64,000 nt of DNA from Bacillales bacterium UBA7278 (GTDB taxonomy: Bacteria > Bacillota_I > Bacilli_A > RFN20 > CAG-826): contig DKRQ01000019.1 of NCBI GenBank assembly GCA_002472275.1, forward strand, positions 140,279-204,278, given 5' to 3'. Shown piece by piece: positions 1,160 through 57,941 of the stretch; position 1 is the stretch's first letter; every line of letters begins with the position of its first letter. The notes beneath the pieces were generated by a model that was given only the letters and a program-made list of their open reading frames with translations, had not been told where the DNA came from and made no database searches. The position numbers and the translations under genes are program-made.

Positions 1160-1170
1160 GGTGAACGACC

Positions 1171-3703: not shown

Positions 3704-3744
3704 GGGTTCTTTGCTAGGCAAAGAGTAAAGAGTAAGATAGGGCC

Positions 3745-38046: not shown

Positions 38047-38133
38047 TACCTACTTAAAGTAGGATTGCCAAACCAAAGCGATTGCCCTATCATAACTACG
38101 CCAATCTAGAAACCAATTGGAGGAAAACTACTC

Positions 38134-43279: not shown

Positions 43280-43611
43280 GGGTGTTCCTCCTGCCTGATA
43301 TTTAGCACGCTTTTGAAAAAAAACAAGAAAATGGGCGTGAATCACATGTGAATGGGGAAAAGCAGACAAGATGCCCGGTCGATTGCGAGCCAAAAGTTTA
43401 ATCCATATCGTCCCTAGACAAACTTCCGGCCGCCTTACCAACTTCAATCGACGGTTCGCCTTAAGGATTGTCTTTTTAACTATTTATAAGGTTTTAGATA
43501 GTTTTACAGACACTACGGGTGTGAAGCCCCATAATCTAACCGACAAAAATGTAGAATTCTACAAAAAAAGAGATTAGAAAACCCTTACGACTCTCTTTTG
43601 ACTTGTGTGGG

Positions 43612-44490
43612 CTATTCTCCCTTCACGGGGTCGAGTTCGTATTTGCCGTCCTTTTCGTTACCGTCGCATAGGCAGGGGAAGAACGCCTCTTTGCCGTCTA
43701 TTTCCCTGAAGGTGGCCTTACGGCCCATAGAAACGTCCTCTAAGACGATTTCTTTGTTTACCCCGAAGAAGATGTGGCAATGGGTGACCATGAGCAAAGC
43801 AGGGGGGTTAGGCTGGCTCATGAGGTCCTTGATTTCGTTATTGAGGATTTTCTTGTTGTTCTTATCGAGGTTATTCAAGGGTTCATCCATCAGGATGAGA
43901 CGGCTGCCTAGGATCCTGGCCTGGAGGATGGCCGTGACGATTTGGCACATCTTGCGTTGGCCGCCAGAGCAAGAATAGATGGAACGGAGGTGGGGGTTAG
44001 TGAAGAAGCCGTTTCCTTTCCTCTCATCGAAGAGGCCGATTTTCCTGAAATGGGCCAAATAGTCCTCGACCGCCTTGCGGCATTCCTTCTTTTTCTCCTT
44101 CTTCTCGGAATAACTCATCTTCTGGTTATATTCGATCGTGAGCTTTAGATTTTGGTAGATCGCCGAGAAGATGGAGGAGGTAGGCAGGAAATCGTCTTCC
44201 TGAGGGACGTAGGCGATGGAGTTGCGTAGATGGGCGAGTTCTCTATCGGAGAAGCTATTCATGGCCTTTTCGCCGAAAAGGAAGGGGAATTGCACCTTTC
44301 CCTTGGTGGCTTTGACCGAGACGTCTTTGCCTACGAGCATCTTGAGGAAGGAACTTTTGCCATAGCCGTTCCTGCCCTTGATGAGGACGAAGTCGCCTCC
44401 TCTGATTTGCAGATCGTCGAAATCCACGGGTGTCCCGTGCACGTCGATCGTCGCCTTTTGGGTTTGAAGCAATATCTCTTCCATGGTCAT
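43612..44490 (-). CDS. ABC transporter ATP-binding protein
   Basis: Walker A GRNGYGKSS, Q-loop YVPQED, signature CSGGQRKM, Walker B LILMDEPL, H-loop MVTHC. ATGA overlap with the upstream permease gene. Confidence 0.85.
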   Translation of the reverse strand: MTMEEILLQTQKATIDVHGTPVDFDDLQIRGGDFVLIKGRNGYGKSSFLKMLVGKDVSVKATKGKVQFPFLFGEKAMNSFSDRELAHLRNSIAYVPQEDDFLPTSSIFSAIYQNLKLTIEYNQKMSYSEKKEKKKECRKAVEDYLAHFRKIGLFDERKGNGFFTNPHLRSIYSCSGGQRKMCQIVTAILQARILGSRLILMDEPLNNLDKNNKKILNNEIKDLMSQPNPPALLMVTHCHIFFGVNKEIVLEDVSMGRKATFREIDGKEAFFPCLCDGNEKDGKYELDPVKGE

Positions 44491-45449
44491 TTCCTCCACG
44501 TCAAAACGGATGATTGCAGATAAATGGACACTAGTAGCGATAACCCCATCGCTAGAAGCATCGACGCTCCCGCGAGGGGATAGGTTAGGTTCATGAGGAA
44601 GAAGATGAGGACGATGAGGAACGGGGGCAAGAAGCGGTAGAGGCCCTTTTCCAGTAGGAAACGGTAGAAGACGCCCCACCTGGAGGAACCGCTTGTTATG
44701 AGCTGCCTCTTTTTCCTTTGGTCGTCTTTTAGGAAGACGAGCCCCACGGCGATGGGGGCGAGGAGGCACACGAGCACCCCGGCCGCAAAGCGGGGCCATG
44801 ATTCTTGGGCCGCTTTTTCGATTTCGACGTTTTTGAGGCGGATATTGCCCTCGATCTGCATGGGGCCGAAGGTGCCAAATTTCTTGGAGAAGCTAACGTA
44901 TCTAGGCTTCACGGAGCGGAGATATTCCTCCATATGCGCGTTGTGCCCGAGCAAGACGATGCCGTAATGCTCATGCTCAAAACCCTTCATCGCGGGGAGT
45001 TCCCCGACGATTTTGAAGGTTCCGTCGTCTTTGTCGTTGGTGAGTAAGGTGTCGCCAACTTTGAGTCTTCTCATCCCCATGACGTTTTTACTCACCATGG
45101 CTTCGCCCGGATTAAGCGAATTCATCGCGGAGACGTAGAAGGGCAACACCTCGGTATAGGTGAATCCAGGGAGCACCATGAGGATATCGGAGGAAAGAGA
45201 GTATTTGCCCGTCTTAACGATGCTTACTCCTGCAAAGTCCGCGAAGGCGTCTTTCTTCTCACCCGTAGAGGGATTTTCATAAGGCAAATCGGCGTAGACC
45301 TTCTCCTGGAATTCGCATTTGCGGAGGACGCTATATTGGTTAAGCGAAGCCGAAACGGGGCCAAAGGAATAAAGACAGAAAACCAATACCCCGAGCATGA
45401 TCAAAAGGGAGGGAAGGTAATCGTGGATGAACTTCCGGAAGAAGAGCAT
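44487..45449 (-). CDS. MacB/FtsX-type ABC permease-like membrane protein
   Basis: N-terminal TM helix, ~190-aa extracytoplasmic domain (GEAMVSKNVMGMRRLKVGDTLL as in MacB periplasmic domains), three C-terminal TM helices. Confidence 0.55.
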   Translation of the reverse strand: MLFFRKFIHDYLPSLLIMLGVLVFCLYSFGPVSASLNQYSVLRKCEFQEKVYADLPYENPSTGEKKDAFADFAGVSIVKTGKYSLSSDILMVLPGFTYTEVLPFYVSAMNSLNPGEAMVSKNVMGMRRLKVGDTLLTNDKDDGTFKIVGELPAMKGFEHEHYGIVLLGHNAHMEEYLRSVKPRYVSFSKKFGTFGPMQIEGNIRLKNVEIEKAAQESWPRFAAGVLVCLLAPIAVGLVFLKDDQRKKRQLITSGSSRWGVFYRFLLEKGLYRFLPPFLIVLIFFLMNLTYPLAGASMLLAMGLSLLVSIYLQSSVLTWRK

Positions 45450-46687
45450 TATTCCTCCGGTTTTTCGACGTTGAGGGGTTCTTCGGCAGGGATTTCCTGG
45501 GTCTCGGGGGCTAACTCGCGCCTACCATAGACGAGGTTACTATAGACCATGCCGATGGGGAGCGCGATCGCCAGTGCGGCGAGGACGGGCAGGCTATAGA
45601 TCAGGAGCGAATCCACGAAGATATGGCCGCGGATCGCGGAGTAGATAAGCGTGCCTCCAAGGGAGACCACAAGGGCCGCTCCGACGGCGATCAAATCGAA
45701 AATAATGATGGTTTTGCGGAGAATTTCTTTGGTTTTGCCGTTTGTTTTCTCGGCTTCATCGCGGTTACGGCCAAGGAAATCAAAGGCGATTAAGCCGCCC
45801 GCTAGTCCTAACGGAACGAGGATGGAGAAGAGCATCGTGAGCTGGAAGCCACGGTCTTTGCGGGTGGATACGGTGTCCTCGGCGCCTTGCATGTAAACGG
45901 CCTTGGCTTGCACCGCGTTGACGAAATCCTGCTTAAGCCAATTGGTCTTCATGGCTTCGTAGCCAGCCTGCAGTTTGGCTTCCCATTCTTCGTCGGTGTA
46001 TTCACCGGGTTGGCGTTGCGCGTCCCATCCCGCTTTATATTCCTCATAGGTCATGAGCTGGCCCATCGGCTTATAGCCTTCCAGCATCTGGGTGCATTTG
46101 GTGATATCCTTCGCGGCGATGAAGGCCAATTCGTAGGTCTTGGGTCCTTTGCCTTCGCCCCAAGACGCCGCCATCGCGGGGGTAAATTTGGCCATGGCGA
46201 TGCCGGTGGCCATCGTCTGGTAGTTGACCGCGGAATAGATGACGGAGACGGGCAAGGTGAATTTGGAGGCGCCTAAGGTGAAGGAAACCTGCGTGCCAAC
46301 TTGGGCCCCGATTTTCTGGGCGGCCACTTCATCTAGCATCAGGCCATTTTCCTTGTAGTCGCCCTTAACGACGCGCTTAGGGTTGAAGAAGGAGATGTCA
46401 TAGTCCGCCATTTGGTCGGAGAGGAGCAGGTGGATTTTGGCTGATGTGCCAGCCGCCACGGAGATTTCGTAATGATAGGTGGGGAAAAGCCCGCTGACCG
46501 CTTCCGTATTGGCCTTAAAGGTCGTCAGCTGGTCGTTAGAAGGCTGAGTGATGATGTAATCGAAGGTCGACTTGGTGAAAGTGGAGGTCGCTTGATCGAT
46601 GGCGATATTCGTCTCGACCGACATGGCTCCACCGACAAGAAGCAAAGCACCTGCGACGATGCCGAGTGCGATTTTGGCAAGTTTCAT
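45449..46687 (-). CDS. MacB/FtsX-type ABC permease-like membrane protein (second copy)
   Basis: Same topology: TM1, ~270-aa external domain, three C-terminal TM helices. One-base overlap with the next gene. Confidence 0.5.
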   Translation of the reverse strand: MKLAKIALGIVAGALLLVGGAMSVETNIAIDQATSTFTKSTFDYIITQPSNDQLTTFKANTEAVSGLFPTYHYEISVAAGTSAKIHLLLSDQMADYDISFFNPKRVVKGDYKENGLMLDEVAAQKIGAQVGTQVSFTLGASKFTLPVSVIYSAVNYQTMATGIAMAKFTPAMAASWGEGKGPKTYELAFIAAKDITKCTQMLEGYKPMGQLMTYEEYKAGWDAQRQPGEYTDEEWEAKLQAGYEAMKTNWLKQDFVNAVQAKAVYMQGAEDTVSTRKDRGFQLTMLFSILVPLGLAGGLIAFDFLGRNRDEAEKTNGKTKEILRKTIIIFDLIAVGAALVVSLGGTLIYSAIRGHIFVDSLLIYSLPVLAALAIALPIGMVYSNLVYGRRELAPETQEIPAEEPLNVEKPEE

Positions 46688-46702
46688 ATCTATTCCCCCC
46701 GA

Positions 46703-47608
46703 TTAGATGGTCACTAGGACGGCGTTGGAATTCCCAGAATCCGTGAAGCCCGCCTTTTTGGAGCAAGCGGAAACGGTCACGGAATAGGGGCCGCCGTAGT
46801 AGTTGCGTTTTTCAAATTCTAGGGTGGAAATGGAGCACTCGTCATCCACGAGGGTTCCTTCTTCGGGGACGAACTGATATTCGGTGCCGTCGAGGTTCTT
46901 CATGGGAGCGCCGTCGATGTTGACTTTGTAGTAATCGGCGCCTTTGACGTGCTTCCAAGCGAGTTTGTTCTCGAAGCTGACCGTGGGCTTGAGGATGTTG
47001 TATTTGTCGACGATCATCGGGATGGTGCATCCGGAAGCGCCCGAGCCGATGACCTCGACTCCGGATTGGTCTTCGGGATAGAAATTCATCTTCATCGTGG
47101 ACTGACCGACGACGGAGGGAGTGATTTTGAAGACGATGCGTTGGGATTCCGTGACATCCGGTTCCGCGGGCACGCGGAAAGCCTGCTCGATCTTGTTCAT
47201 CTGCTTATTGGTGACGGGGTCGCGGTAGGGAATTGGGGTGCCGTCGGTGCCAGAGTCGGACTTCATCAAGAAGGCATCGAAGATCGTGATGGCCTCGAAT
47301 TCGAGAGCGGCTTTCAAAAGGAGATGGCCGCTGGTTTCGGCGCGGGAATAGTAGTCGAACTCGTAGACCAAATAGTATTGGTCAGCGATGCAAAGGCTCG
47401 CCAAATCGGCGTATTTGCTGTAATCGACAACTTCGTTAGGCTTTCCGGTGGAGACGATGAAACCGCGTTTGATCTTAGTCACGTTGACGGTGGTGGTCAG
47501 CTCGATGGAACGGGTGCCGGTGGAGAGTCCGCCGATATGGCTAGATTCACCTCCACAGGAGGCGAGACAGGCGACGATGGCCGGAATCAGAATGAGTTTC
47601 TTCTTCAT
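46703..47608 (-). CDS. Lipoprotein with a C-terminal FN3/Ig-like module
   Basis: Lipobox ACLASCGG. PTVSFENKLAWKHVKGADYYKVNIDGA resembles the repeats of the upstream 621-aa protein. Confidence 0.55.
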   Translation of the reverse strand: MKKKLILIPAIVACLASCGGESSHIGGLSTGTRSIELTTTVNVTKIKRGFIVSTGKPNEVVDYSKYADLASLCIADQYYLVYEFDYYSRAETSGHLLLKAALEFEAITIFDAFLMKSDSGTDGTPIPYRDPVTNKQMNKIEQAFRVPAEPDVTESQRIVFKITPSVVGQSTMKMNFYPEDQSGVEVIGSGASGCTIPMIVDKYNILKPTVSFENKLAWKHVKGADYYKVNIDGAPMKNLDGTEYQFVPEEGTLVDDECSISTLEFEKRNYYGGPYSVTVSACSKKAGFTDSGNSNAVLVTI

Positions 47609-47620
47609 AAAGATTGCTCC

Positions 47621-49486
47621 TTAGTAGTCTAACCCTAGGGTTTCGTAGGTCCTTTCGAAGACTTTGATGGTGGATTCGGGGTCGGTTGAATAAGTGACCT
47701 CTTCGATCGTGAATTCGATGCGATTCGCTTCACGGAAGGTTAGCGGGCGTAGGCCTGGAGTAACCCCATCGCGATAAACTGTCCAGTCGGCGTAGGTTTG
47801 TGTATTCACGTGATCGGAGTAAATCCATTTGACCTCGACCTTGGCGTTGATGTTCCTGTTCACGCCAGGAATGGAGTGATGGAGGACAAAATGGGCGAGT
47901 TTTTGGCCGCTTTCCTTGTCAATTGAGGTGCTCGGTTCATCCCAAGAAATGTTCGGAATGAGGAAGGTGACACGGTTAGAATCCGCGGAACGGAGAATGT
48001 CGTTGCCATTGCCGAGGTTGACGGTCCTCACCGCGTATTGGCCCGCGGCGAATCCATTGAGAGTAGTCTCGGAAAGATCCGTCAAATCCGTCCTCTTTTG
48101 GTCGTTAATGTAAATCGTGAAAGAAGAAGGATCGGCATTATCGAACGTGAAACTCTTGCCATCAAAGGAGATGGTGGGAGCACCGAGTTTGGTGAGTGTT
48201 ACCTCGTTGGAGAACTCCGAGGAAATCTGATTGGTGTTGCCAACGGCCTTGGCGGTAACCTTGTGGGCACCGACCGCGGTGATACCGTTAAGATTGGCGT
48301 CCCATTCGGCTCCGTCTAGATAGTATTGGACCGAATTCTCGCTGCTGACGTTGCTCGCATGGAGGACTCCTTCGGAAATGGAGATGAGGGGGCTATCGAG
48401 TTTGGTCAAAACCAAAGGCGCGGACATCGCGGAATCGATTTCTCCCGCGTTTCTCGCCGCGTTTTTGGCGGTGATGCTGTAGCTGCCGACTTCGGTGATG
48501 GTCTTCACGTCGCCGGTGAACTCAACGCCATCGCGATACCATATGAGGTTTTCGCCATCCGCGGCGGTGAGCGCTCCATTGACCAAGGAAAGCTTGGGAG
48601 TGGGCATCCTGCGGATTTCGGCTTCCACGGGGGTGGCGTAATCGACTTCGGCGTTAGGCCCAATGGTGCGGATGGAAATGTTATAGACGCCAGGGTTAGT
48701 GGTGTCGAAGGCGATTTCGGGTGCGGTCGGGGAGAATGTGGAGCCGTTGATGCGGACATCATATCCAGAAGCATCGGTCGCGGCGGTCCATTTGAATTTG
48801 CCGTCGGTGGCGTCGTAATGGATGTCGGAGACGCCCGGCATCTTCCTTAGTTTCACCGCGGCGGATTCGTCGCTGGGGGAGTAGGCGGAGACGCCGTTGC
48901 TGCCCTTTTTGTCGCTTCCCGCGATGACGTAGGTCTCGAATTGGCTGAAGAAGGCGATCGAGTTGAAATCGTAGGTGGTGGTTTCGGTGTTGTAGTTGGT
49001 GATGGCCGCCTTGGTCTCGGGGTTGCGGAGATAAACGGTGTAGAAAGTGGCATTCTCGATGGGCTCCCAGTTCAAAACGCCGGTAGTGAAGTTGAATTTG
49101 GGGGCAGGGGTGAGGAGTTTTTTCGGGGAAGTGGTGACCTTGATGACCTTTTTGAAGTTCAAATAAGTCAAGGTGACCTCTTGGGTGCCGACGTAAAGCG
49201 GGTCATAACCCGTCACGGTGAACTTGTCGCCGGAAATCCATTGTCCGACGGAATCGAAGGCGTTGCCGACGTGAATTTTGGCGTTGGATAAATCCAAGGT
49301 GCCGCCATAGACGATGGGGTATTCTTCCTGGAGTTCTTTGACTTCGGTGACCACGTTGGTTCCCATGTTGATAAGAACGGGGGCGGTGGCGCCACCGGCG
49401 ACGCCCAAAGCAACGAGGGCGACGCTGCCGATCATGATGGATTGGGCCAGTTTGAGCCTGGCCACTGCGCGAAGCATGTGTGCCAT
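47621..49486 (-). CDS. Membrane-anchored surface protein with multiple FN3/Ig-like repeats
   Basis: N-terminal TM anchor (IMIGSVALVALGVAGG). Repeats such as PAPKFNFTTGVLNWEPIENATFYTVYL and VSDIHYDATDGKFKWTAATDASGYDVRI. Confidence 0.55.
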   Translation of the reverse strand: MAHMLRAVARLKLAQSIMIGSVALVALGVAGGATAPVLINMGTNVVTEVKELQEEYPIVYGGTLDLSNAKIHVGNAFDSVGQWISGDKFTVTGYDPLYVGTQEVTLTYLNFKKVIKVTTSPKKLLTPAPKFNFTTGVLNWEPIENATFYTVYLRNPETKAAITNYNTETTTYDFNSIAFFSQFETYVIAGSDKKGSNGVSAYSPSDESAAVKLRKMPGVSDIHYDATDGKFKWTAATDASGYDVRINGSTFSPTAPEIAFDTTNPGVYNISIRTIGPNAEVDYATPVEAEIRRMPTPKLSLVNGALTAADGENLIWYRDGVEFTGDVKTITEVGSYSITAKNAARNAGEIDSAMSAPLVLTKLDSPLISISEGVLHASNVSSENSVQYYLDGAEWDANLNGITAVGAHKVTAKAVGNTNQISSEFSNEVTLTKLGAPTISFDGKSFTFDNADPSSFTIYINDQKRTDLTDLSETTLNGFAAGQYAVRTVNLGNGNDILRSADSNRVTFLIPNISWDEPSTSIDKESGQKLAHFVLHHSIPGVNRNINAKVEVKWIYSDHVNTQTYADWTVYRDGVTPGLRPLTFREANRIEFTIEEVTYSTDPESTIKVFERTYETLGLDY

Positions 49487-50319
49487 TATTTCTGACTCCT
49501 TTCCAGGCGTTTGCTAAAGCCCTTATAGGCTTTGTTGAGAACCTTGATGTGCTTGCGTTTCCTGCGGCTGAAGATGAGGGTCTTCAGGGGATAGACGCTC
49601 GTGACGAAATCCTCGTCGTTGAGGGTGTCGTTGATGAAGGCGACGTAGAACTTCAATTGTTCATCGGTCTTCGCGGTCTTCATGAGGAATTCGGCAAATT
49701 CATAGAAGGCCACTTCGTCATAGTTGCCGAACTTGTCGGAAAGGGATTGCTTGATCTTCGAAACGGAAAGCAAGGTGGTTAGGTCGCCGCCTTTTCCGGA
49801 AACGGAGAAATAGTTCTGATAAAGCTGGCCCCAGAAATGGGGATTGATGGCGTCGCATTCCTTGATGTCCGCCACGATTTGGGCAACGGTGTCGAAGTCG
49901 CCGAAAAGCGAACGGCAGAAGACGACGCGGAGGACGACCTCGGCCAAGCGGTTCCAGGTTTTGCCTTTGTTCGGATATGCGCCGAGTTCACCGGCAAGAC
50001 CTTGAATCTCGATCTTGATGGTGCTCGCGGATTGCTGATCGATGGATTGGATTTCGGCTTCCAGGTTGACCGGGAATGCCTTATTGAGTTCGTTGGCGGC
50101 CTCTAATAGATCTTGATCGGTGCCGGCATTTTTGACGGCCTTATGGATGGCTTTCCATTGGTCCTCACTAGGCAAAACGATGAGGGAACTTTCGTCCTCA
50201 CCTTGGCTTAGCACAATGCTTCCGCAGAACTTGCACTTATAGCGGCCGAGCGACTCTTTGACCAAGCCAGAGCTCTCGCCGCAATGGGGGCATTTGAGCG
50301 CCTGAAGTTCGATTGCCAT
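49486..50319 (-). CDS. Cytoplasmic zinc-ribbon protein, first gene of the divergent operon
   Basis: RBS aggagg before ATG 50319. MAIELQALKCPHCGESSGLVKESLGRYKCKFCGS (CxxC-x15-CxxC). The rest is helical with no recognised domain. Confidence 0.5.
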   Translation of the reverse strand: MAIELQALKCPHCGESSGLVKESLGRYKCKFCGSIVLSQGEDESSLIVLPSEDQWKAIHKAVKNAGTDQDLLEAANELNKAFPVNLEAEIQSIDQQSASTIKIEIQGLAGELGAYPNKGKTWNRLAEVVLRVVFCRSLFGDFDTVAQIVADIKECDAINPHFWGQLYQNYFSVSGKGGDLTTLLSVSKIKQSLSDKFGNYDEVAFYEFAEFLMKTAKTDEQLKFYVAFINDTLNDEDFVTSVYPLKTLIFSRRKRKHIKVLNKAYKGFSKRLERSQK

Positions 50320-50552
50320 GCTCTTCCTCCTTGGGTAGTGGCAGGGGGAGTGAGTGCTCAAAACACTATTTTCCCCCGTTCCTATGGAACATCTTATTAC
50401 ACGAGACTCTTTTATTCTATAAAAAAATACCCAGTTCCAATTCGAATGCGGAAACCATACATTTTTGCAAAGATTTTTCACATTTTTGAGGTGTGAGGAA
50501 TCTCACAAAAACCCTGCAAAAACCCCATATTTTTTGGAACTAAAACCCATAA

Positions 50553-50591
50553 TTAGCGCATTTTTAGCGCTGTCTTAGCGCTTCTTTAGCG
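50553..50591. promoter_or_regulatory. Four direct TTAGCG repeats at exact 11-bp spacing (putative transcription-factor array)
   Basis: TTAGCG occurs at 50553, 50564, 50575 and 50586 (aTTAGCGCatt tTTAGCGCtgt cTTAGCGCttc tTTAGCGGatg), in the 377-bp divergent intergenic region. Confidence 0.6.
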
Positions 50592-50640
50592 GATGCCCAA
50601 AGGGCAGGAAACGAAAAAATCTCGATATATGGAAACCGCA

Positions 50641-50649
50641 TGTTATAAT
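50641..50649 (+). promoter_or_regulatory. Extended -10 promoter element (TGtTATAAT) for the ESCRT-III/Vps4-like operon
   Basis: TG-n-TATAAT lies 48 nt upstream of ATG 50697. RBS aaggggga at 50681-50688. Confidence 0.6.
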
Positions 50650-50696
50650 TGCCTAAACTTCGCCTTTAAGGCGCCATACGAAGGGGGACAAAAATC

Positions 50697-51644
50697 ATGT
50701 CACTATTCACTGATAAGGTCGACTTAGGGATGGCGGATTCCCGCGAACACTTGATTGAGAAGTATGTTTTCGACGTCAAGAAAGGAACCATCCAAATCCA
50801 CGTCAAACCCGGCTATGAAGCCATCATCAACGGCTACGACAAAATCGGGCCGAACCAAACCAACACCTACAACAAGAAGACGATCGGCACCACGCTCACT
50901 GCTTTCGTCTACCAGAAGGGCAGCATCGCCAAGCCGATCATCGTTCCCTTCTTCGCCGGTCAGCACACCATTTCGCTAGACGCCCATAAGACCGCCAAGG
51001 CCACGTTCGCCCTTGTCGGCACGGCCAAGATCGAGATCGATGACTACAAGGCGCTTGCTCGTTATTTCGACAGCACCGTGACCTATGCCGATGTCGAGAA
51101 AGAACTCCACGAGAACTTCAAGGACGCGTTCTCAATCCACATGACCGCAGCCGCGAAAACCTATATCTCTTCTTCCTCCACCGATGTCTCGATCCACTCG
51201 GATCTCAAAAACATCGCCAAGGCCGGTATCCAGGGCTCTTCCCTCCAGAACACCCTCATCGACATGGGCATGTCCCTTATGTCTTCCGGCATCAGCCTGA
51301 GGCTCAACCCGGTCGGCAACTCCGAGGAGATCATCGCCGCCATCAACGCCAAATTCAACGAAGCCGCCTTCGATGAATTCGACGAGGCCAAAGCCGATAA
51401 GCAGCGTCAAAGGGAAATCGAAGACAAGAAGTTGGACTACCAGCACGAAATCGACGTCATCAACGCTCAGAACACCGATACCCAGAACCGCAACAACAGC
51501 TATGCCTACTCGGGCAATGTCCCAAAGTATCCTCACGGCGCTCCCGCCGCCCCCGATACCGGCAAGAGGTTCTGCTCGCATTGCGGCAGGGAACTCGCCC
51601 CCCGCGACGAATATTGCCCGTCCTGTGGCACCAAGACCCGCTAA
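50697..51644 (+). CDS. SPFH/band-7-like (YdjI-type) protein with a C-terminal zinc ribbon
   Basis: MSLFTDK N-terminus. Beta-rich then helical SPFH-like layout. Coiled segment KADKQRQREIEDKKLDYQHEID. C-terminal CSHCG-x9-CPSCG. Internal acidic AAFDEFDE motif. Confidence 0.45.
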   Translation: MSLFTDKVDLGMADSREHLIEKYVFDVKKGTIQIHVKPGYEAIINGYDKIGPNQTNTYNKKTIGTTLTAFVYQKGSIAKPIIVPFFAGQHTISLDAHKTAKATFALVGTAKIEIDDYKALARYFDSTVTYADVEKELHENFKDAFSIHMTAAAKTYISSSSTDVSIHSDLKNIAKAGIQGSSLQNTLIDMGMSLMSSGISLRLNPVGNSEEIIAAINAKFNEAAFDEFDEAKADKQRQREIEDKKLDYQHEIDVINAQNTDTQNRNNSYAYSGNVPKYPHGAPAAPDTGKRFCSHCGRELAPRDEYCPSCGTKTR

Positions 51645-51669
51645 TCACCACCGATAAGGAGAATCAACA

Positions 51670-52635
51670 ATGGGACTTTTCAAAAGCAAAGAGCAGAAGG
51701 CCGCTGAGGCCGCTGCAAAGCAGAGGCAGCAGCAGCAAGCCGCCATCAACAAGGGTCTACAAGACAGCATGACCCCGAAAGACGATGTTACCCCCTACGC
51801 CAACGAAAAAAAGCGCAGGCAGGAAGAGCAAGCCGCGGCCCAGCACCAAGAAGCCAACCGCGACGAGATCGACGAAATCCTCAGGAACCTCTCCAGGGAA
51901 ATCTCGCTGAGCTTCCCCGACGCCGAAGACGACGCCCAGGAAATCCGCGACCTTTCCGTCAGGGTCAGGAGGATGAACCTTGGCAAGAACCAAGGTGCCA
52001 CCGACGCCATCATGACCTTCATCCGCGCCAAAGCGCAGGACATGATCGTCAAGGCCCACGCCGGCAACTACGCCGCCATCATCGGCTTCTTCGAAGAGCT
52101 TAGGAGCCTCATTAACGACGCGGAGAATCCACAAAAGGCCAAACTTATGGCCGATCCCGCCTACGTCAAGCGTCGTATCCGCGTCGCCGAGCTTTCCGCC
52201 CTCAAGGAAGACCTCCAAGGCCAGAAACAGGCTTTGTATCGCCAACGCGACAAACTCAAATCCAGGATGGAAGCCGGCCTCATTGACCAACGTGAAGCCG
52301 TCTCCAGGGTCGGCGACATCCGCGCTCAAGTCGAAGACTTGGAACGTTCCCTCCAGAACGCCCAGAGCGATTTGAGGGATGCCCAGACCGTCCTCACCGA
52401 GCAGGAGACCCAGATCCGCAACTCCGCGAAAGCCAAGGCCGAGGACATCAACGACTACACCGCGATCGCCGACCAGAAGGCCGACGCCGAGGCGCTTTCC
52501 TCCGAGAAAAACGACGTCATGTCGCAGATCCGTCAGAACAGCACCGATGTTTCGATGGATGACATGCATATGCATGCCAGCACCGGCAAGACCGAACTCA
52601 GCCAAGAACAGGTCGACAACGCCTTCGACTTCTAA
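51670..52635 (+). CDS. Long coiled-coil protein, possible PspA/ESCRT-III-superfamily member or adaptor
   Basis: MGLFKSKEQK N-terminus. Heptad-rich helices over 321 aa. C-terminal acidic peptide ELSQEQVDNAFDF. Confidence 0.35.
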   Translation: MGLFKSKEQKAAEAAAKQRQQQQAAINKGLQDSMTPKDDVTPYANEKKRRQEEQAAAQHQEANRDEIDEILRNLSREISLSFPDAEDDAQEIRDLSVRVRRMNLGKNQGATDAIMTFIRAKAQDMIVKAHAGNYAAIIGFFEELRSLINDAENPQKAKLMADPAYVKRRIRVAELSALKEDLQGQKQALYRQRDKLKSRMEAGLIDQREAVSRVGDIRAQVEDLERSLQNAQSDLRDAQTVLTEQETQIRNSAKAKAEDINDYTAIADQKADAEALSSEKNDVMSQIRQNSTDVSMDDMHMHASTGKTELSQEQVDNAFDF

Positions 52636-52649
52636 GGAGAGAGACGAAC

Positions 52650-53228
52650 ATGTTTGGTAAGAAACCCGCTCAGATGCCTAACCGCACCGACATCAACCTC
52701 AAGTTTTCGTCGAGCCTGCGCCAGTTGAAGCGCTCCATCGACCAGCTCGACCAAAAGATCGAGGCCGAAGTGGCCGCCGCGATTTCCTATAGGAAATCCG
52801 GCAACATCGACGAGGAACATCGTTCCCTCGCCAAGATCCAACGCTACCTCGCCCAGAAGATCCAAAAGGAACGTTTCTATGACAGCGTCGAAGGCGTCAA
52901 AGCCAAAATCGACGATATCCTCGACAAAGTCGAGGTTTCCCGCAACCTCTCCGAGACCTTGGGCAGCATCGGCCAACTCGTCGATTCCAAGGAACTCAAA
53001 TCCATCGTCGGCGAACTCGACACGTTCAACAAGAACTTCGCCAAGACCAACAACATGATGGACGCCTTCATGGGCTCGATGGACGCAACCGTCGGCGAAA
53101 TGAGCGTCGATCCTAGCCTCACCGCCTCCGTTCAGGCGATGGTCGGCGAAAGAATGAAGGGGTACGAGACTCGCATTGAGGAGCAGGCCGAGGCCGACCT
53201 CGATGAGAGCGCGTTCAATTTTCAATAA
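52650..53228 (+). CDS. ESCRT-III (Snf7/CHMP)-like protein 1
   Basis: 192 aa. MFGKKP N-terminus. Basic alpha1-alpha2 hairpin (LRQLKRSIDQLDQKIEAEVAAAISYRKSGNIDEEHRSLAKIQRYLAQKIQ). LSETLGSIGQLV...IVGELDTFNKNF...MMDAFMGSMD parallels CHMP alpha3-alpha5. Acidic tail EEQAEADLDESAFNFQ. Confidence 0.6.
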   Translation: MFGKKPAQMPNRTDINLKFSSSLRQLKRSIDQLDQKIEAEVAAAISYRKSGNIDEEHRSLAKIQRYLAQKIQKERFYDSVEGVKAKIDDILDKVEVSRNLSETLGSIGQLVDSKELKSIVGELDTFNKNFAKTNNMMDAFMGSMDATVGEMSVDPSLTASVQAMVGERMKGYETRIEEQAEADLDESAFNFQ

Positions 53229-54505
53229 TGGAAAGCATCAACTCCGTCAAAAACCGTTTCTTAGCCGAGAAGAAAGAGGCGGAATACCGCCTCACAGTCA
53301 AGGACTACCAAGGGGCCATGCCTCATCTAGAGAAGGCCGCCGAACTCCTTGGCGAGGTTTATCGTCGCGACATTAACGTGCAAAGGCGCGAGCAGTATAA
53401 GCGTATCCGCGAAGAACTTCGCGACAAATACGACGAGTGCAAGCAGGAACTAGGCATGGCGCCTTCCTCCTCTTCCAAGCCCCGTCAGAGCACCCAGCGT
53501 CCCGCTGGCCCCCGTCCCGCCGCTGGCGGTGCCTCCCAAGCCAAGGGCGGCGCGCCCGCAAAAGGCGGCGACCAGAAGGGCAAAGGCAAGCAAGCCGAGG
53601 AAGACGATGGCATCAACTACGTCGTCAACGGCATCGACCTGAAGCAATTCCTCGCTTCCGAATCCCGTGAGAAAGATGTCATGTTCGACGACGTCATCGG
53701 CATGGAGAGGGAGAAGCGCACGGTCAAAGGCGAACTGTTCCTCTCAGAGGAAGAGAAAGCCTACAAAGCCCAAATCGGCCTCAAGAACAAGAACTTCATC
53801 CTCCTCTATGGTCTTCCCGGCACCGGTAAGACCTACTTCGCGATGGCCCTTTCCAATGAGCTCCGCGAATTCTCGGGCGAGGACATCCCGTTCTTCTCCG
53901 TCGTGTGCACGCATTTGAAATCGTCCCACGTCGGCCAAACCGAGAACAACATCATCGCCCTCTTCGAGTTCACGAAGCAGTTCGACCGTTGCGTCCTCTT
54001 CATGGACGAATTCGACGCGATCGGTCAATCCAGACAGAAGAACTCGGGCGACCCGACCGCCGTCACGGTTGTCAACACGTTGCTCACCCAACTCGGTGGC
54101 TTCGATTCCAACCCGAACCTCCTCTTCATCGCCGCGACCAACTGCCCCTATAACCTAGACGGTGCGTTGCTCTCCCGCGCCTCCCCCAAGATCGAGGTGC
54201 CTCTTCCCGGCGCCGAGGTCCTCTATGGGACTCTTAAGAGGAAGTTAGGGGATCTAGTCGCCCCCGACGTCGACCTCTCCGCGGTGGCCAACAGGCTTGC
54301 CAAAAGCAAGTTCTCCAACCGCGACGCCTCCAACCTGATCGACGAAATCAAGAGGAAGCTATTCGAAGCCCATAGGGCGGACGATATGATCGACAAAGTC
54401 GATACCTCGATGATCACCACCGCGCTGAAGGAGGTTAAGTCCTCCGTCAAGCGCGATGAGGAAATCGCCTTGGAGGAATTCAAGGCGCAATTTGCAGAAA
54501 ACTGA
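53228..54505 (+). CDS. Vps4-like MIT-linker-AAA+ ATPase, paralog 1 (degenerate arginine-finger region)
   Basis: Helical N-domain (KDYQGAMPHLEKAAELLGEVY). G/P/K/A-rich linker. Walker A GLPGTGKT, Walker B LFMDEFD, sensor-1 AATNCPYNLD. The SRH region reads LLSRASPKIEV. Confidence 0.6.
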   Translation: MESINSVKNRFLAEKKEAEYRLTVKDYQGAMPHLEKAAELLGEVYRRDINVQRREQYKRIREELRDKYDECKQELGMAPSSSSKPRQSTQRPAGPRPAAGGASQAKGGAPAKGGDQKGKGKQAEEDDGINYVVNGIDLKQFLASESREKDVMFDDVIGMEREKRTVKGELFLSEEEKAYKAQIGLKNKNFILLYGLPGTGKTYFAMALSNELREFSGEDIPFFSVVCTHLKSSHVGQTENNIIALFEFTKQFDRCVLFMDEFDAIGQSRQKNSGDPTAVTVVNTLLTQLGGFDSNPNLLFIAATNCPYNLDGALLSRASPKIEVPLPGAEVLYGTLKRKLGDLVAPDVDLSAVANRLAKSKFSNRDASNLIDEIKRKLFEAHRADDMIDKVDTSMITTALKEVKSSVKRDEEIALEEFKAQFAEN

Positions 54506-54526
54506 TATCAATAAGGAGATATAACC

Positions 54527-55114
54527 ATGAACGACATCAAACGCCGCATGAAGATGATGGAAGAGAAGCAGCAAGCCAAAGACATCATCAAGCAATTCGA
54601 TTCCGTCATCGTCAATTTGGACAATGGCATCGCCAAGTGCCGCGAGAAGGCCAAGGAAGCCTTGGTCAAGCGCAACGACATGGCCGGTTTCAAGATGTTC
54701 GGCCGTTCCATGAAGTACTACCAGAACATGAAGAACTCGATCGAGGCCATCAAGTGCCAGTTCGAGAACTACCTGATCCAAGTCGAGGTCGCCAACACCT
54801 TCGTCGGTTTGAAGGACGTCCTTGGCAAAACCGCCAAGATGATGGACTCCATGCCCTCTTTGCAGAAGAACAACCGCGACTTCATGAAGTTCAAGAAGTC
54901 CATCATGAAAGGCCAGCTCTCCATGGATTCCATCAACTCCATGATGAGCAACCTGGATCCCTCCGCGGATTCCGAACTCACCCCCGCCGAACTCGACAGC
55001 CTCAAGGACGAGATCCTCATGACCTCCGGCGCGAGCCAGACCACGATCGGCGCGACCGAAGGCGACAAGGCCTCCCAGTCCTCGGGCGACTTCTTCTCCG
55101 AACTCGACATCTAA
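54527..55114 (+). CDS. ESCRT-III (Snf7/CHMP)-like protein 2
   Basis: 195 aa. KAKEALVKRNDMAGFKMFGRSMKYYQNMKNSIEAIKCQFEN...GLKDVLGKTAKMMDSM...MKFKKSIMKG...MDSINSMMSNL. Acidic tail GDFFSELDI. Confidence 0.55.
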   Translation: MNDIKRRMKMMEEKQQAKDIIKQFDSVIVNLDNGIAKCREKAKEALVKRNDMAGFKMFGRSMKYYQNMKNSIEAIKCQFENYLIQVEVANTFVGLKDVLGKTAKMMDSMPSLQKNNRDFMKFKKSIMKGQLSMDSINSMMSNLDPSADSELTPAELDSLKDEILMTSGASQTTIGATEGDKASQSSGDFFSELDI

Positions 55115-55123
55115 TCCAAAACC

Positions 55124-56308
55124 ATGGCCTTTGATTACCCGGGGAAAAATAGAGCCTACGAAGCGGCCCTTCAAAGAACGAAGGAATGCCTTTCTAACGG
55201 CGACGTCGAAAACGGCACCCTCTACCTAGACAAAGCGATTACCCTGTCCGCCGAGCTCGCCGCAAACGCGGCGATCCCGGAGTTTCAGGCGCGCTTCAAA
55301 AAGGAGAACGCCCAGCTCCTCAAAATCAAGGGCATGCTCGGCAAGGGCGAGAACCCCTTCCGGAAGAAAGCCACCGTTTCTAACGGAGACGGGGCAAAAG
55401 GAGGGGATGGCAAAGCCCAAAAGCCCGAGGAAGGGGAAAACGTCAGCGGCTTCTTCTCCACGGAGATCCCGACGACCACCCTCGCCGACGTCGCGGGCCT
55501 AGAGGAGGTCAAGGAGCAGATTCGCATCAACGTCTTGCTCCCTCTAAAGGACCCCGAGGTTTTCTATAACTATAAAAAGGACGCAGGTGCGCGAATCATC
55601 ATGTACGGCCCGCCGGGATGTGGCAAAAGCTTCGTCGCCGAAGCGATCGCCGGCGAGCTCAAGTGCCATTACGCGGTCATCACCTCCGACCAAATCCTCG
55701 ACAAGTATGTAGGCGTCGCCTCCAAAAGGATCAAGGCCGTCTTCGACGAAGCCGAGAAATACGACAACGTCCTTCTCTTCTTCGACGAAATCGACGCGCT
55801 TTGCGCTTCCCGCGACTCCGACGATTCCGCTCACACGAAGGACATTTTGACGACCTTCCTCACCTGCATGTCGGGTTTCAAACCCAAAGACAAATCCTTG
55901 AAGGTCATCATCGGCGCGACCAACAGGCCGTGGGCGATCGACTCCGCTTTGGTCCGTGGCCAGCGTTTGGACACCGCGATCTACGTCCGCCTGCCCGACC
56001 GCAAGGCCAGGGAATTCTTCGTGAAGAAGGAGTGGGAGAAGTTCGCCAACATCTACGAAGGCAGCGACCTCACGATGGATTACGCGATCGACGCCCTCGA
56101 TGGGTTCTCCGGCGCGGATATCAAGACGATCCTCGACCAAGCAAAGACCAAGACATTGACCCGTGTTTTGCAGGACAATTTGCCAAAAGGGCAATATTAC
56201 AAGGTGTCCAAGGCGGATTTCGACTCCGCTTTGGCGGCCCACCATAACCCCGTCACCGCCGAAATGCTACTTAGATACGAAGCCTTCGGGAAAGGAATGA
56301 CCGAATGA
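55124..56308 (+). CDS. Vps4-like MIT-linker-AAA+ ATPase, paralog 2
   Basis: Helical N-domain (LSNGDVENGTLYLDKAITLSAELA). G/K-rich linker. Walker A GPPGCGKS, pore loop KYVG, Walker B LLFFDEID, sensor-1 GATNRPWAID (compare Vps4 GATNIPWQLD). Confidence 0.65.
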   Translation: MAFDYPGKNRAYEAALQRTKECLSNGDVENGTLYLDKAITLSAELAANAAIPEFQARFKKENAQLLKIKGMLGKGENPFRKKATVSNGDGAKGGDGKAQKPEEGENVSGFFSTEIPTTTLADVAGLEEVKEQIRINVLLPLKDPEVFYNYKKDAGARIIMYGPPGCGKSFVAEAIAGELKCHYAVITSDQILDKYVGVASKRIKAVFDEAEKYDNVLLFFDEIDALCASRDSDDSAHTKDILTTFLTCMSGFKPKDKSLKVIIGATNRPWAIDSALVRGQRLDTAIYVRLPDRKAREFFVKKEWEKFANIYEGSDLTMDYAIDALDGFSGADIKTILDQAKTKTLTRVLQDNLPKGQYYKVSKADFDSALAAHHNPVTAEMLLRYEAFGKGMTE

Positions 56309-57876: not shown

Positions 57877-57941
57877 GCGGGAAATCGCCGCAAAACCATT
57901 AGATTTCCTAAATTGCGATACCCAAGAAAGGAGTAGCGATC

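What the first reader, a model, noticed from the sequence alone, without database searches (positions are those of the whole stretch)
43612..50319. Divergent six-gene envelope operon (Zn-ribbon protein, FN3/Ig proteins, two MacB/FtsX-type permeases, ABC ATPase) paired with the ESCRT-like operon
All six genes are on the minus strand and linked by 1-4-bp overlaps or gaps of 15 bp or less. In order they encode a 277-aa cytoplasmic CxxC-x15-CxxC zinc-ribbon protein, a 621-aa TM-anchored protein of FN3/Ig-like repeats, a 301-aa lipoprotein with the same repeat type, two FtsX/MacB-like permeases with large external domains, and an ABC ATPase. MacB/FtsEX-type transporters act as mechanotransmitters that drive extracytoplasmic partners rather than importing substrates. 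Here the likely partners are the two FN3/Ig envelope proteins. The operon shares its 377-bp control region, including the TTAGCG x4 array, with the ESCRT-III/Vps4-like operon. Like that operon, it starts with a zinc-ribbon protein. This may be the outward-facing half of one membrane/envelope-remodelling system.
Basis: inference. Interest (0 to 1): 0.55.

Follow-up and report, generated by a model that had tools for sequence, protein, structure and literature searches.

The report
Divergent MacB-type ABC operon beside Snf7/AAA operon
Six tightly packed genes in an uncultured rumen/gut Bacilli bacterium encode a very divergent MacB/LolCDE/FtsEX-type ABC machine with its own surface proteins and a zinc-ribbon protein, and this block stays next to a eukaryote-like Snf7/AAA membrane-remodelling operon in related genomes even after rearrangement, which suggests but does not prove that the two work together.

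Summary
Structure prediction shows that both membrane proteins have the type VII ABC permease fold (MacB/LolC-E/FtsX/HrtB), although neither matches a Pfam or NCBIfam family. They are non-identical, as in LolC/LolE. The ATPase has every catalytic motif and is closest to the LolD/FtsE/MJ0796 group. The 621-aa protein has a Big_3 domain followed by at least four tandem beta modules. Only the last ~100 residues of the lipoprotein resemble one of those modules.

The block is confined to a small clade of uncultured Bacilli: 18 permease clusters against 26 Snf7-like clusters among 5.8 billion. In all seven lineages where the second operon could be located, the two operons lie within about 4 kb of each other. 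Five are divergent and two convergent, one of the latter with a LysR/MatE insertion. Outer flanking genes differ. No locus with ample flanks on both sides lacks the partner, but several short contigs are uninformative.

The TTAGCG x4 array is real but not conserved. Physical coupling, the partner roles of the Ig/FN3 proteins and co-regulation remain inference. I call it a new variant of a known kind with an undescribed association. Interest about 0.6.

The parts
49486..50319 (-). ZnR277: soluble 277-aa protein with an N-terminal CxxC-x15-CxxC zinc ribbon, an unassigned domain of about 240 residues that matches no known family, and a basic tail. It is one of the two best-conserved proteins of the six.
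   Evidence: There is no TM segment. Only weak zinc-ribbon Pfam hits were found. An exhaustive phmmer search of 1.84 billion representatives found only its own family plus one unrelated repeat protein. Identity to orthologues is 51-68%.
47621..49486 (-). Ig621: 621-aa protein with an N-terminal signal-anchor or signal peptide, a Big_3 Ig-like domain, FN3-like modules and four tandem ~75-aa beta modules. It is the fastest-evolving member.
   Evidence: One hydrophobic segment at residues 21-39. Big_3 at 5.6e-6, present in 7 of 7 orthologues; fn3 and Ig_J are weak hits in two orthologues each. Internal repeats were detected by hhalign. Identity to orthologues is 40-49%.
46703..47608 (-). Lipo301: 301-aa lipoprotein (lipobox LASC) with an unassigned N-terminal domain and a C-terminal FN3-like module related to Ig621 residues 119-211.
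   Evidence: It has no Pfam or NCBIfam hit.
45449..46687 (-). Perm412: type VII ABC permease (TM1, a ~250-aa external domain, then TM2-4).
   Evidence: AlphaFold2 model with pLDDT 78.9. All 50 best Foldseek PDB hits are type VII permeases or their periplasmic domains: LolE 1.1e-12, HrtB, MacB, LolC, YbbP, BceB, YtrF, FtsX. Four TM segments. No Pfam hit. Only 18 homologous clusters exist.
44487..45449 (-). Perm320: a second, non-identical type VII ABC permease (TM1, a ~190-aa external domain, then TM2-4).
43612..44490 (-). ABC292: ABC ATPase with all catalytic motifs, an enlarged helical subdomain and a ~45-aa C-terminal extension.
   Evidence: PF00005 at 1.3e-15. Best NCBIfam models are lactococcin-972 ABC, FtsE, LolD and DevA, all far below their cut-offs. 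Best full-length PDB matches are MJ0796, PsdA, LolD, FtsE and YtrE. Motif positions are given.
50320..50696 (.). 377-bp divergent control region between ZnR277 and the first gene of the Snf7/AAA operon.
50553..50591 (+). TTAGCG x4 array with an exact 11-bp period, lying just upstream of a promoter-like site for the + strand operon.
   Evidence: It is not conserved in the other divergent regions. Two copies occur on the opposite strand in L008/L009.
50514..50526 (+). Motif CTGCAAAAACCCC. It is conserved in the same orientation in all five divergent intergenic regions.
   Evidence: It is absent upstream of the six-gene operon in L002, L019 and L017.
50622..50649 (+). Promoter-like site TCGATA-16-(TG)TATAAT in front of the Snf7/AAA operon.
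   Evidence: This is a consensus match only.
50697..58889 (+). Partner operon of eight genes: ZnR315 (C-terminal zinc ribbon), a 321-aa unknown, Snf7-like 192, AAA 425, Snf7-like 195, AAA 394, AAA 523 and a 2x zinc-ribbon trypsin-like protease.

Best explanation
The six genes form one operon for a lineage-specific type VII (MacB/LolCDE/FtsEX-fold) ABC machine. A dimer of ABC292 on the cytoplasmic face powers a heterodimer of Perm412 and Perm320. As in other type VII systems, ATP binding and hydrolysis are transmitted through the long TM1/TM2 helices to the external domains. Those domains do work on something outside the membrane rather than carrying a solute across it. The most likely external clients are the operon's own surface proteins, the lipoprotein Lipo301 and the multi-Ig/FN3 protein Ig621. 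The soluble zinc-ribbon protein ZnR277 is proposed to gate the ATPase or connect it to the neighbouring Snf7-like/AAA machinery. Surface and lipoprotein handling outside would then be coordinated with membrane deformation or repair inside.

Shown here: the operon structure, the fold of both permeases, an intact ATPase, a lipoprotein and an exported Ig-like protein, restriction to one small clade, and conserved neighbourhood with the Snf7/AAA operon.

Inferred: the heterodimer, the identity of the clients, the role of ZnR277, and any physical or regulatory coupling to the Snf7/AAA operon.
For: - Operon. Overlaps or gaps of 15 bp or less. The same six genes occur in the same order in L002, L003/L004, L005, L017 and L019, and as far as the contig reaches in L010/L011 and L018.
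- ATPase. All motifs are intact and the closest relatives are type VII-partner ATPases.
- Exported partners. Lipobox, signal-anchor and Big_3/fn3-like modules.
- Link to the Snf7/AAA operon. The two are divergent neighbours in the window, L003/L004, L005, L010/L011 and L018. They are convergent neighbours in L002 (48 bp apart) and in L014/L019 (3.7 kb, with LysR and MatE inserted). Outer flanks differ in every lineage.
- Both families are about equally rare and come from the same kind of uncultured Bacilli MAGs and metagenome samples.
- Neither family was found in viral contigs.
- The Snf7/AAA operon itself encodes large LRR_5 lipoproteins in L002, L010 and L014, so that operon also has an outward-facing component.
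- Cytoplasmic members (ZnR277 51-68%, ABC292 60-65% identity) are more conserved than external ones (Ig621 40-49%).
Against: - All evidence for the link is gene neighbourhood within one narrow clade, and only two arrangement types are seen.
- L008/L009 have zinc-ribbon-TIR and LRR_5 genes, not the six-gene operon, upstream of the Snf7/AAA operon.
- L017 has unrelated genes upstream of the six-gene operon.
- In L007 and L020 nothing related lies downstream of the Snf7/AAA operon, and the upstream side is cut off.
- The control region is not conserved, and the separated six-gene operons lack the conserved motif.
- ZnR277 shares only a generic zinc ribbon with the other ribbon proteins of the locus.
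- No interaction was modelled. The external domain of Perm320 is modelled with low confidence.
Confidence: 0.5

Rival explanations
1. It is a stand-alone envelope-stress or resistance pump of the type VII kind, like BceAB, YtrEF, HrtBA or Spr0693-0695. It would remove or sense a membrane- or wall-active compound. It sits near an ESCRT-III-superfamily membrane-repair operon only because both belong to an envelope-stress neighbourhood, with no physical coupling.
For: The structural neighbours include HrtB, YtrF and BceB. The ATPase's best NCBIfam model is a bacteriocin-export ABC. ESCRT-III-superfamily proteins of bacteria (PspA) act in envelope stress, and ABC components have been noted near PspA/Snf7-AAA+ operons elsewhere (PMC11237479). 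The six-gene operon has its own upstream region where it is separated from the Snf7/AAA operon.
Against: No sensor kinase or regulator is encoded in the operon. Three dedicated accessory proteins (ZnR277, Ig621, Lipo301) are strictly conserved with the transporter. All subfamily models score far below their cut-offs. The neighbourhood survived an inversion and an insertion.
Confidence: 0.2
2. It is a LolCDE-like lipoprotein extractor of a single-membrane (monoderm) bacterium. The heterodimeric permease would pull Lipo301, and the LRR_5 lipoproteins encoded in the Snf7/AAA operon of some relatives, out of the outer leaflet. The lipoproteins would then be released, handed to Ig621, or loaded onto vesicles.
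For: The best Foldseek hits are LolE for Perm412 and LolC for Perm320. It has two different permeases and one ATPase, as in LolCDE. A lipoprotein is encoded in the operon. Lipoprotein LRR_5 genes lie inside the partner operon in L002, L010 and L014.
Confidence: 0.12
3. It is part of a conflict or anti-phage island. The surface Ig/FN3 proteins and the ABC machine would act as a sensor or exclusion device. The Snf7/AAA, trypsin-like and (in relatives) TIR proteins would be the response arm.
For: Zinc-ribbon-TIR proteins occupy the position of ZnR277 in L008/L009. Trypsin-like proteases flank the locus. AAA425 hits IetA models in PADLOC. Ig621 evolves fastest.
Against: None of the five non-ATPase proteins has a convincing PADLOC hit; ZnR277 gives only two weak hits, LmuB at E 0.001 and PDC-S64 at E 0.0075, the latter over the zinc ribbon. 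The ATPase and AAA hits are generic P-loop/AAA similarity. The locus lies in a chromosomal region with rpoBC and tuf nearby, and neither family is in viral contigs. The gene set is stable rather than patchy among close relatives.
Confidence: 0.08
4. It is an FtsEX-like regulator of cell-wall hydrolysis for division or separation.
For: FtsX structures are among the matches, and FtsE is among the best ATPase models. FtsEX systems use extracytoplasmic partners.
Against: The FtsE score is 56 bits against a cut-off of 265. There are two different permeases instead of an FtsX homodimer. No hydrolase, LytM, CHAP/NlpC or coiled-coil activator is detectable in Ig621 or Lipo301. FtsX ranks well below Lol, MacB and HrtB.
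Confidence: 0.05
5. The neighbourhood is inherited gene order with no functional meaning.
For: All lineages belong to one small clade. Several contigs are too short to test.
Against: Outer flanks are completely different between lineages at 45-65% protein identity, while the pair persists, including after inversion and an insertion.
Confidence: 0.05

Closest known systems
LolCDE (lipoprotein release, Gram-negative bacteria)
   Same: It has two different 4-TM permeases with large external domains plus one ATPase type. LolE and LolC are the best Foldseek matches. A lipoprotein is involved.
   Different: Only 9-15% identity. The LolD model scores far below its cut-off. The host is a Bacilli MAG with no outer membrane and no LolA/LolB. 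Extra ZnR277 and Ig621 subunits are present.
FtsEX with EnvC/PcsB/CwlO (and SweCD in B. subtilis; PMC7668044, PMC6705773)
   Same: A type VII ABC that acts as a mechanotransmitter on extracytoplasmic partner proteins, with accessory proteins encoded nearby.
   Different: FtsX is a homodimer. Its partners are coiled-coil hydrolase activators or hydrolases, and none is detectable here. The FtsE model scores far below its cut-off.
MacB family, HrtBA, YtrEF, BceAB, YbbAP-TesA (PMC5985334, PMC12646458)
   Same: The same permease fold. They extract substrates from the outer face or outer leaflet of the membrane.
   Different: There is no fused ATPase (MacB), no 10-TM architecture (BceB, YbbP) and no adaptor or kinase partner. 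It has a different accessory set and no Pfam FtsX or MacB_PCD match.
PspA/Snf7 plus AAA+ operons extended by ABC ATPase and permease genes (Ravi et al. 2024, PMC11237479)
   Same: A previously noted association of ESCRT-III-superfamily and AAA+ genes with ABC transporter genes in prokaryotes.
   Different: Those examples carry a solute- and peptidoglycan-binding PBPB-OmpA protein, which implies importer-like logic. Here the transporter is type VII, with Ig/FN3 surface proteins and a zinc-ribbon protein, in a separate operon.
Archaeal and eukaryotic ESCRT-III/Vps4
   Same: The partner operon has two Snf7-like proteins interleaved with classical AAA ATPases.
   Different: Reviews state that Snf7-type ESCRT-III with Vps4 is not found in bacteria (PMC10936438, PMC7619361). 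The AAA proteins here are nearer VAT/Cdc48-D2 than Vps4 or katanin. No MIT domain was shown.

Membership tests
Type VII ABC transporters (MacB/FtsX superfamily) | Permease with four TM helices: TM1, then a large extracytoplasmic domain, then TM2-4, in the MacB/FtsX fold. | tested here: met
Type VII ABC transporters (MacB/FtsX superfamily) | External domain of the Porter/Sabre type. | tested here: inconclusive
   Perm412 matches isolated periplasmic domains of LolE, LolC and MacB (E 1.8e-7 to 2.5e-4, TM-score about 0.4-0.57 on the target). The Perm320 external domain is modelled at pLDDT below 50. One orthologue hits MacB_PCD at E 0.037.
Type VII ABC transporters (MacB/FtsX superfamily) | Sequence match to Pfam FtsX (PF02687) or MacB_PCD (PF12704). 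| tested here: not met
   No hit for either permease at E 0.1 or below. For the nine Perm320-family sequences scanned at E 10 or below, the only hit was the single 0.037 MacB_PCD match. Profile searches against PDB sequences were negative.
Type VII ABC transporters (MacB/FtsX superfamily) | Partner ATPase of the MJ0796/LolD/FtsE/MacB group with intact catalytic motifs. | tested here: met
   Best NCBIfam and PDB matches belong to this group, at weak scores. Motifs: Walker A GRNGYGKS, VPQ, SGGQ, LILMDEP, TH.
Type VII ABC transporters (MacB/FtsX superfamily) | ATP-driven mechanotransmission to the outside, without transmembrane passage of substrate. | not testable with these tools
   This needs biochemistry or structures of the complex.
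LolCDE | LolD/LolC/LolE equivalog-level sequence similarity, and LolA/LolB acceptors in a bacterium with an outer membrane. | tested here: not met
   TIGR02211 LolD scores 55 bits against a cut-off of 307.75. The host is annotated as Erysipelotrichaceae/Bacilli MAGs. No LolA-like gene is in the operon.
FtsEX | FtsE equivalog, a single FtsX, and a hydrolase or coiled-coil activator partner. | tested here: not met
   TIGR02673 FtsE scores 56 bits against a cut-off of 264.85. There are two different permeases. No hydrolase or activator domain is found in Ig621 or Lipo301.
Lactococcin-972-type bacteriocin export ABC | TIGR03608 subfamily membership of the ATPase. | tested here: not met
   63 bits against a cut-off of 254.85.
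BceAB-type | A 10-TM BceB permease and an associated BceRS-like two-component system. | tested here: not met
   The permeases have four TM helices each. No kinase or regulator is present in the operon in any locus.
ESCRT-III/Vps4 system (partner operon) | A Snf7-family ESCRT-III subunit. | tested here: inconclusive
   PF03357 scores 23.3 and 22.8 bits against a cut-off of 27.3. The profile's best PDB hit is CHMP1B, nearly full length, at E 0.045. Some orthologues are annotated Snf7.
ESCRT-III/Vps4 system (partner operon) | A Vps4-type AAA ATPase (MIT domain, Vps4_C). | tested here: inconclusive
   A classical AAA domain is clear. The best PDB matches are VAT/Cdc48-D2 at about 1e-74; the katanin-like protein is at 1e-39. 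Vps4_C is only a faint hit. The MIT domain was not examined.

The most novel reading that the evidence does not exclude
The six-gene block is the outward-facing half of a bacterial ESCRT-like machine. A type VII ABC mechanotransducer, docked through the zinc-ribbon protein ZnR277 to a Snf7-like/AAA polymer system, would couple membrane scission, budding or repair on the cytoplasmic face to extraction or rearrangement of surface lipoproteins and Ig/FN3 proteins on the outer face. One example would be vesicle release or division in a bacterium. This would be the first case of an ABC mechanotransmitter working with an ESCRT-III-type system.
Probability: 0.3. Interest if true: 0.8.

Novelty: new variant of a known kind. 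Interest (0 to 1): 0.6.

Why it matters
Type VII ABC machines are known to drive a handful of envelope processes: lipoprotein release, septal wall hydrolysis, efflux, and heme or peptide removal. This operon adds a branch so divergent that no family model sees it. It has a new accessory set (zinc-ribbon protein, multi-Ig protein, lipoprotein) and a conserved partnership with a Snf7-like/AAA operon in bacteria. Current reviews say Snf7-type ESCRT-III with a dedicated AAA ATPase is missing from bacteria. If the partnership is functional, it gives a concrete, testable model for how membrane remodelling inside a cell is coordinated with events on the cell surface. It would also provide a handle for studying an ESCRT-like system in a bacterial background.

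Tried and rejected
1. The genome-contig scan with the ZnR277 alignment found only a zinc-ribbon-only hit in a Patescibacteria MAG. No species-level co-occurrence census could be made, and the reason for the miss is unknown, since NCBI MAGs do carry the genes.
2. The metagenome-contig scan with the Snf7-like alignment gave only five loci.
It returned nothing.
The last job was then used for Perm320, so ZnR277, Ig621 and Lipo301 have no models.
5. The afdb50 fold library was unavailable.
6. Sequence-profile searches of Perm412, Perm320, ZnR277 and ZnR315 against PDB chains gave nothing meaningful.
7. hhalign of Perm412 against Perm320 gave no signal.
8. PADLOC gave nothing specific for the six proteins.
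9. Viral contigs contained neither family.
10. The TTAGCG array as a conserved shared operator is rejected. It is absent from the other divergent regions.
11. The idea that ZnR277 shares more than the ribbon with the zinc-ribbon-trypsin or zinc-ribbon-TIR proteins is rejected.
12. L014 first looked like a counter-example, a Snf7/AAA operon without the partner. A 65,467-bp contig from another sample (L019), taken to be the same contig because of its identical length and matching layout, carries the six-gene operon convergent to the trypsin-like gene across a 3.7-kb gap.
13. P0155, the only non-family hit of ZnR277, is an uninformative 1509-aa repeat/EF-hand protein.


Full report
OBSERVATION. 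The window is a bacterial chromosome segment. It carries rpoB/rpoC at 16715-24560 and fusA/tuf at 35944-39327, and has no tRNA or Rfam hits. Exact-sequence look-ups place its proteins in NCBI MAGs labelled 'Erysipelotrichaceae bacterium' or 'Bacilli bacterium'. In one MAG the genes of both operons carry accessions that fall in one consecutive run, MBE6135153-62. The related sequences come from metagenome assemblies whose sample names suggest a rumen or gut origin; that origin is my inference.

The six minus-strand genes are as described. They are ZnR277 (49486-50319), Ig621 (47621-49486), Lipo301 (46703-47608), Perm412 (45449-46687), Perm320 (44487-45449) and ABC292 (43612-44490). The junctions are -1, +12, +15, -1 and -4 bp. 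The start of ZnR277 at 50319 has an AGGAGG ribosome-binding site, and orthologues start at the same residue. The start of ABC292 at 44490 is preceded by GGAGGAA. Both starts are supported by the sequence and by orthologue alignments. The control region is 377 bp. TTAGCG occurs four times with an exact 11-bp period, which is 4 of only 13 copies in 64 kb.

WHAT THE PROTEINS ARE.
- ABC292 is a bona fide ABC ATPase (PF00005, 1.3e-15). It has Walker A, Q-loop, SGGQ signature, Walker B/catalytic Glu and H-loop. Its best family and PDB matches are the ATPases that partner type VII permeases: lactococcin-972 ABC, FtsE, LolD, DevA, MJ0796, PsdA and YtrE. All score far below the curated cut-offs.
- Neither permease matches any Pfam or NCBIfam model or any PDB sequence profile.
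- An AlphaFold2 model of Perm412 (18-sequence alignment, pLDDT 78.9) matches only type VII permeases in its top 50 PDB hits. These run from LolE at 1.1e-12 through HrtB, MacB, LolC, YbbP, BceB and YtrF to FtsX, and include isolated periplasmic domains of LolE, LolC and MacB.
- The two permeases show no detectable sequence-profile similarity to each other. With one ATPase gene, the simplest architecture is a LolC/LolE-like heterodimer with an ABC292 dimer. This is inference.
- Ig621 has one N-terminal hydrophobic segment and a Big_3 domain found in all seven orthologues. It also has two W-x(n)-A-x-x-Y-x-V FN3-like modules and four mutually related ~75-residue modules between about residues 215 and 520.
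- Lipo301 has a lipobox (LASC). Only its last ~100 residues resemble an Ig621 module (hhalign 42%, E 2.6e-4). Its N-terminal ~175 residues match nothing.
- ZnR277 is soluble, with a CxxC-x15-CxxC ribbon followed by an unassigned domain. An exhaustive phmmer search over 1.84 billion representatives found only its own family.
- ZnR277 and ABC292 are the best-conserved members (ZnR277 51-68%, ABC292 60-65% identity). Ig621 is the least conserved (40-49%).

DISTRIBUTION AND NEIGHBOURHOOD. Perm412 has only 18 homologous clusters among 5.8 billion. The Snf7-like protein of the partner operon has 26. Neither family was found in viral contigs. The genome-representative scan found nothing real, so no species census was possible.

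From contig look-ups and local tblastn, the six genes always occur together and in the same order. The relationship to the Snf7/AAA operon is as follows.
- Divergent neighbours: the window, L003/L004, L005, L010/L011 and L018.
- Convergent neighbours: L002, where the ABC292 stop lies 48 bp from the stop of the zinc-ribbon-trypsin gene. Also L014/L019, treated as the same 65,467-bp contig recovered from two samples on the basis of identical length and matching layout, where LysR, MatE and two small ORFs (3.7 kb) are inserted between the operons.
- Outer flanking genes differ in every lineage. Examples are S41 peptidases, TruB and RibF; Vut_1; LRR_5; TyrRS; RDD; GGDEF-EAL; and WhiA with GAPDH.
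- In every lineage where the second operon could be located, it lies within about 4 kb. The intervening sequence plus a further ~5 kb could be inspected in those cases.
- Uninformative or partly negative cases are these. L008/L009 have zinc-ribbon-TIR and Sel1/LRR_5 genes in the position upstream of the Snf7/AAA operon, and only 1.3 kb downstream is visible. L015 and L016 show only 1.1-1.6 kb upstream. L007 and L020 are cut off on the upstream side and have unrelated genes downstream. L017 is a six-gene operon with unrelated upstream genes and only 670 bp visible downstream.

So the neighbourhood is conserved beyond what flank conservation explains. It is not shown to be obligatory, and all of the data come from one small clade.

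REGULATION. A promoter-like site (TCGATA-16-TGTTATAAT) lies between the TTAGCG array and the first gene of the Snf7/AAA operon. The array is not present in the other divergent regions. L008/L009 have two copies on the other strand. A different motif, CTGCAAAAACCCC, is conserved in the same orientation in all five divergent regions. It is absent upstream of the six-gene operon where that operon is separated, in L002, L019 and L017. Co-regulation through a shared operator is therefore unproven and not conserved.

THE PARTNER OPERON. It encodes ZnR315 (C-terminal ribbon), a fast-evolving 321-aa protein, two Snf7-like proteins, three paralogous classical AAA ATPases and a double-ribbon trypsin-like protease.
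- The Snf7-like proteins score 23 bits on Pfam Snf7 against a cut-off of 27.3. Their profile's best PDB hit is CHMP1B over nearly the full length, at E 0.045.
- The AAA ATPases are closest to VAT/Cdc48-D2, not Vps4.
- In L002, L010 and L014 the operon also encodes 915-950-aa LRR_5 lipoproteins, so it has surface components of its own.
- Zinc ribbons recur in ZnR277, ZnR315, the protease and the TIR proteins of L008/L009. Beyond the ribbon there is no detectable similarity.

MECHANISM. The best-supported reading is a type VII ABC mechanotransmitter. ATP-driven closure of the ABC292 dimer is transmitted by the Perm412/Perm320 helices to their external domains. Those domains act on Lipo301 and/or Ig621. 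ZnR277 acts on the cytoplasmic side, possibly as the connection to the Snf7/AAA machinery. The fold, the operon, the intact ATPase, the exported partners and the conserved neighbourhood are shown. The heterodimer, the clients, the role of ZnR277 and the coupling are inferred.

The rivals are a stand-alone resistance or stress pump, a Lol-like lipoprotein extractor, a conflict system, an FtsEX-like wall-hydrolysis regulator, and meaningless inherited synteny. They are listed with their evidence in the Rival explanations section. None is excluded, but each lacks a defining feature that was tested (cut-offs; no kinase, hydrolase or acceptor genes; PADLOC negative).

COMPARISON WITH WHAT IS KNOWN. 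By fold this is a type VII ABC system (PMC5985334, PMC12646458). By sequence it belongs to no curated subfamily. An association of PspA/Snf7 and AAA+ genes with ABC ATPase and permease genes has been noted before, in other lineages and with a PBPB-OmpA binding protein (PMC11237479). Reviews state that Snf7-type ESCRT-III with Vps4 is absent from bacteria (PMC10936438, PMC7619361). Searches of the held literature found no description of this locus.

I therefore rate it a new variant of a known kind (type VII ABC) with an undescribed and potentially important partnership. Interest is 0.6. The most novel reading not excluded is an ABC mechanotransmitter acting as the external arm of a bacterial ESCRT-like machine. 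I give that a probability of about 0.3.

Noticed in passing
L008:445-2427 (-); L009:109-1749 (+) and 3187-4128 (-): In a more distant relative, the position diverging from the Snf7/AAA operon is occupied by proteins with an N-terminal CxxC zinc ribbon, a linker of roughly 150 residues and a TIR_2 domain. One is fused to Sel1/LRR_5 and one has a C-terminal TM segment. In the window that position holds ZnR277. Only the ribbon aligns with ZnR277.
   Followed up: partly
L002:14042-16882 (-); L010:11833-14580 (+); L014:15199-18051 (+): Large LRR_5 (BspA-type) proteins are encoded inside the Snf7/AAA operon, between the third AAA gene and the zinc-ribbon-trypsin gene. They carry lipoprotein signal peptides, so that operon also encodes surface proteins. 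The window lacks this gene.
   Followed up: partly
window 53228-54505, 55124-56308, 56305-57876 (+): The three AAA ATPases are paralogues of one another. Among solved structures they are closest to VAT/Cdc48 D2 domains (about 1e-74) rather than to Vps4 or katanin (1e-39). 'Vps4-like' is an analogy, not a demonstrated family membership.
   Followed up: partly
window 41732-43447 (-) and 40047-41735 (-): A 571-aa protein with one TM segment and a C-terminal trypsin-like domain starts 164 bp downstream of the ABC gene on the same strand, with no clear terminator between them. A 562-aa protein with no family match follows. Neither is conserved next to the operon in the other loci.
   Followed up: partly
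window 50514-50526 (+): The motif CTGCAAAAACCCC is conserved in the same orientation in all five divergent intergenic regions, and on the other strand in L008. It may be an operator or promoter element of the Snf7/AAA operon.
   Followed up: partly
window 25231-25908 (-) and 60498-61349 (+): Two DUF3990 proteins lie in the same window. The first overlaps an HTH_3 gene at 24612-25250 by 20 bp, and the second overlaps a 159-aa ORF by 4 bp. They look like small two-gene modules of unknown function.
   Followed up: no
window 26008-34814 (+): A run of likely surface proteins: two LRR_5 proteins, one of them fused to an SBP_bac_8 solute-binding domain, and a protein with Dockerin_1 and EF-hand domains. 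Dockerin is unusual in a Bacilli MAG.
   Followed up: no
window 80-2970 (+): NADH-dehydrogenase-like (Nuo51/4Fe-4S) and [FeFe]-hydrogenase large-subunit genes. This suggests an anaerobic, hydrogen-producing organism, which would suit the rumen or gut origin inferred from the metagenome sample names.
   Followed up: no
window 43612-44490 (-): The ABC ATPase has about 35 extra residues between the Walker A and signature motifs and a ~45-residue C-terminal extension containing a CxC pair. These may be docking sites for ZnR277 or other partners.
   Followed up: no
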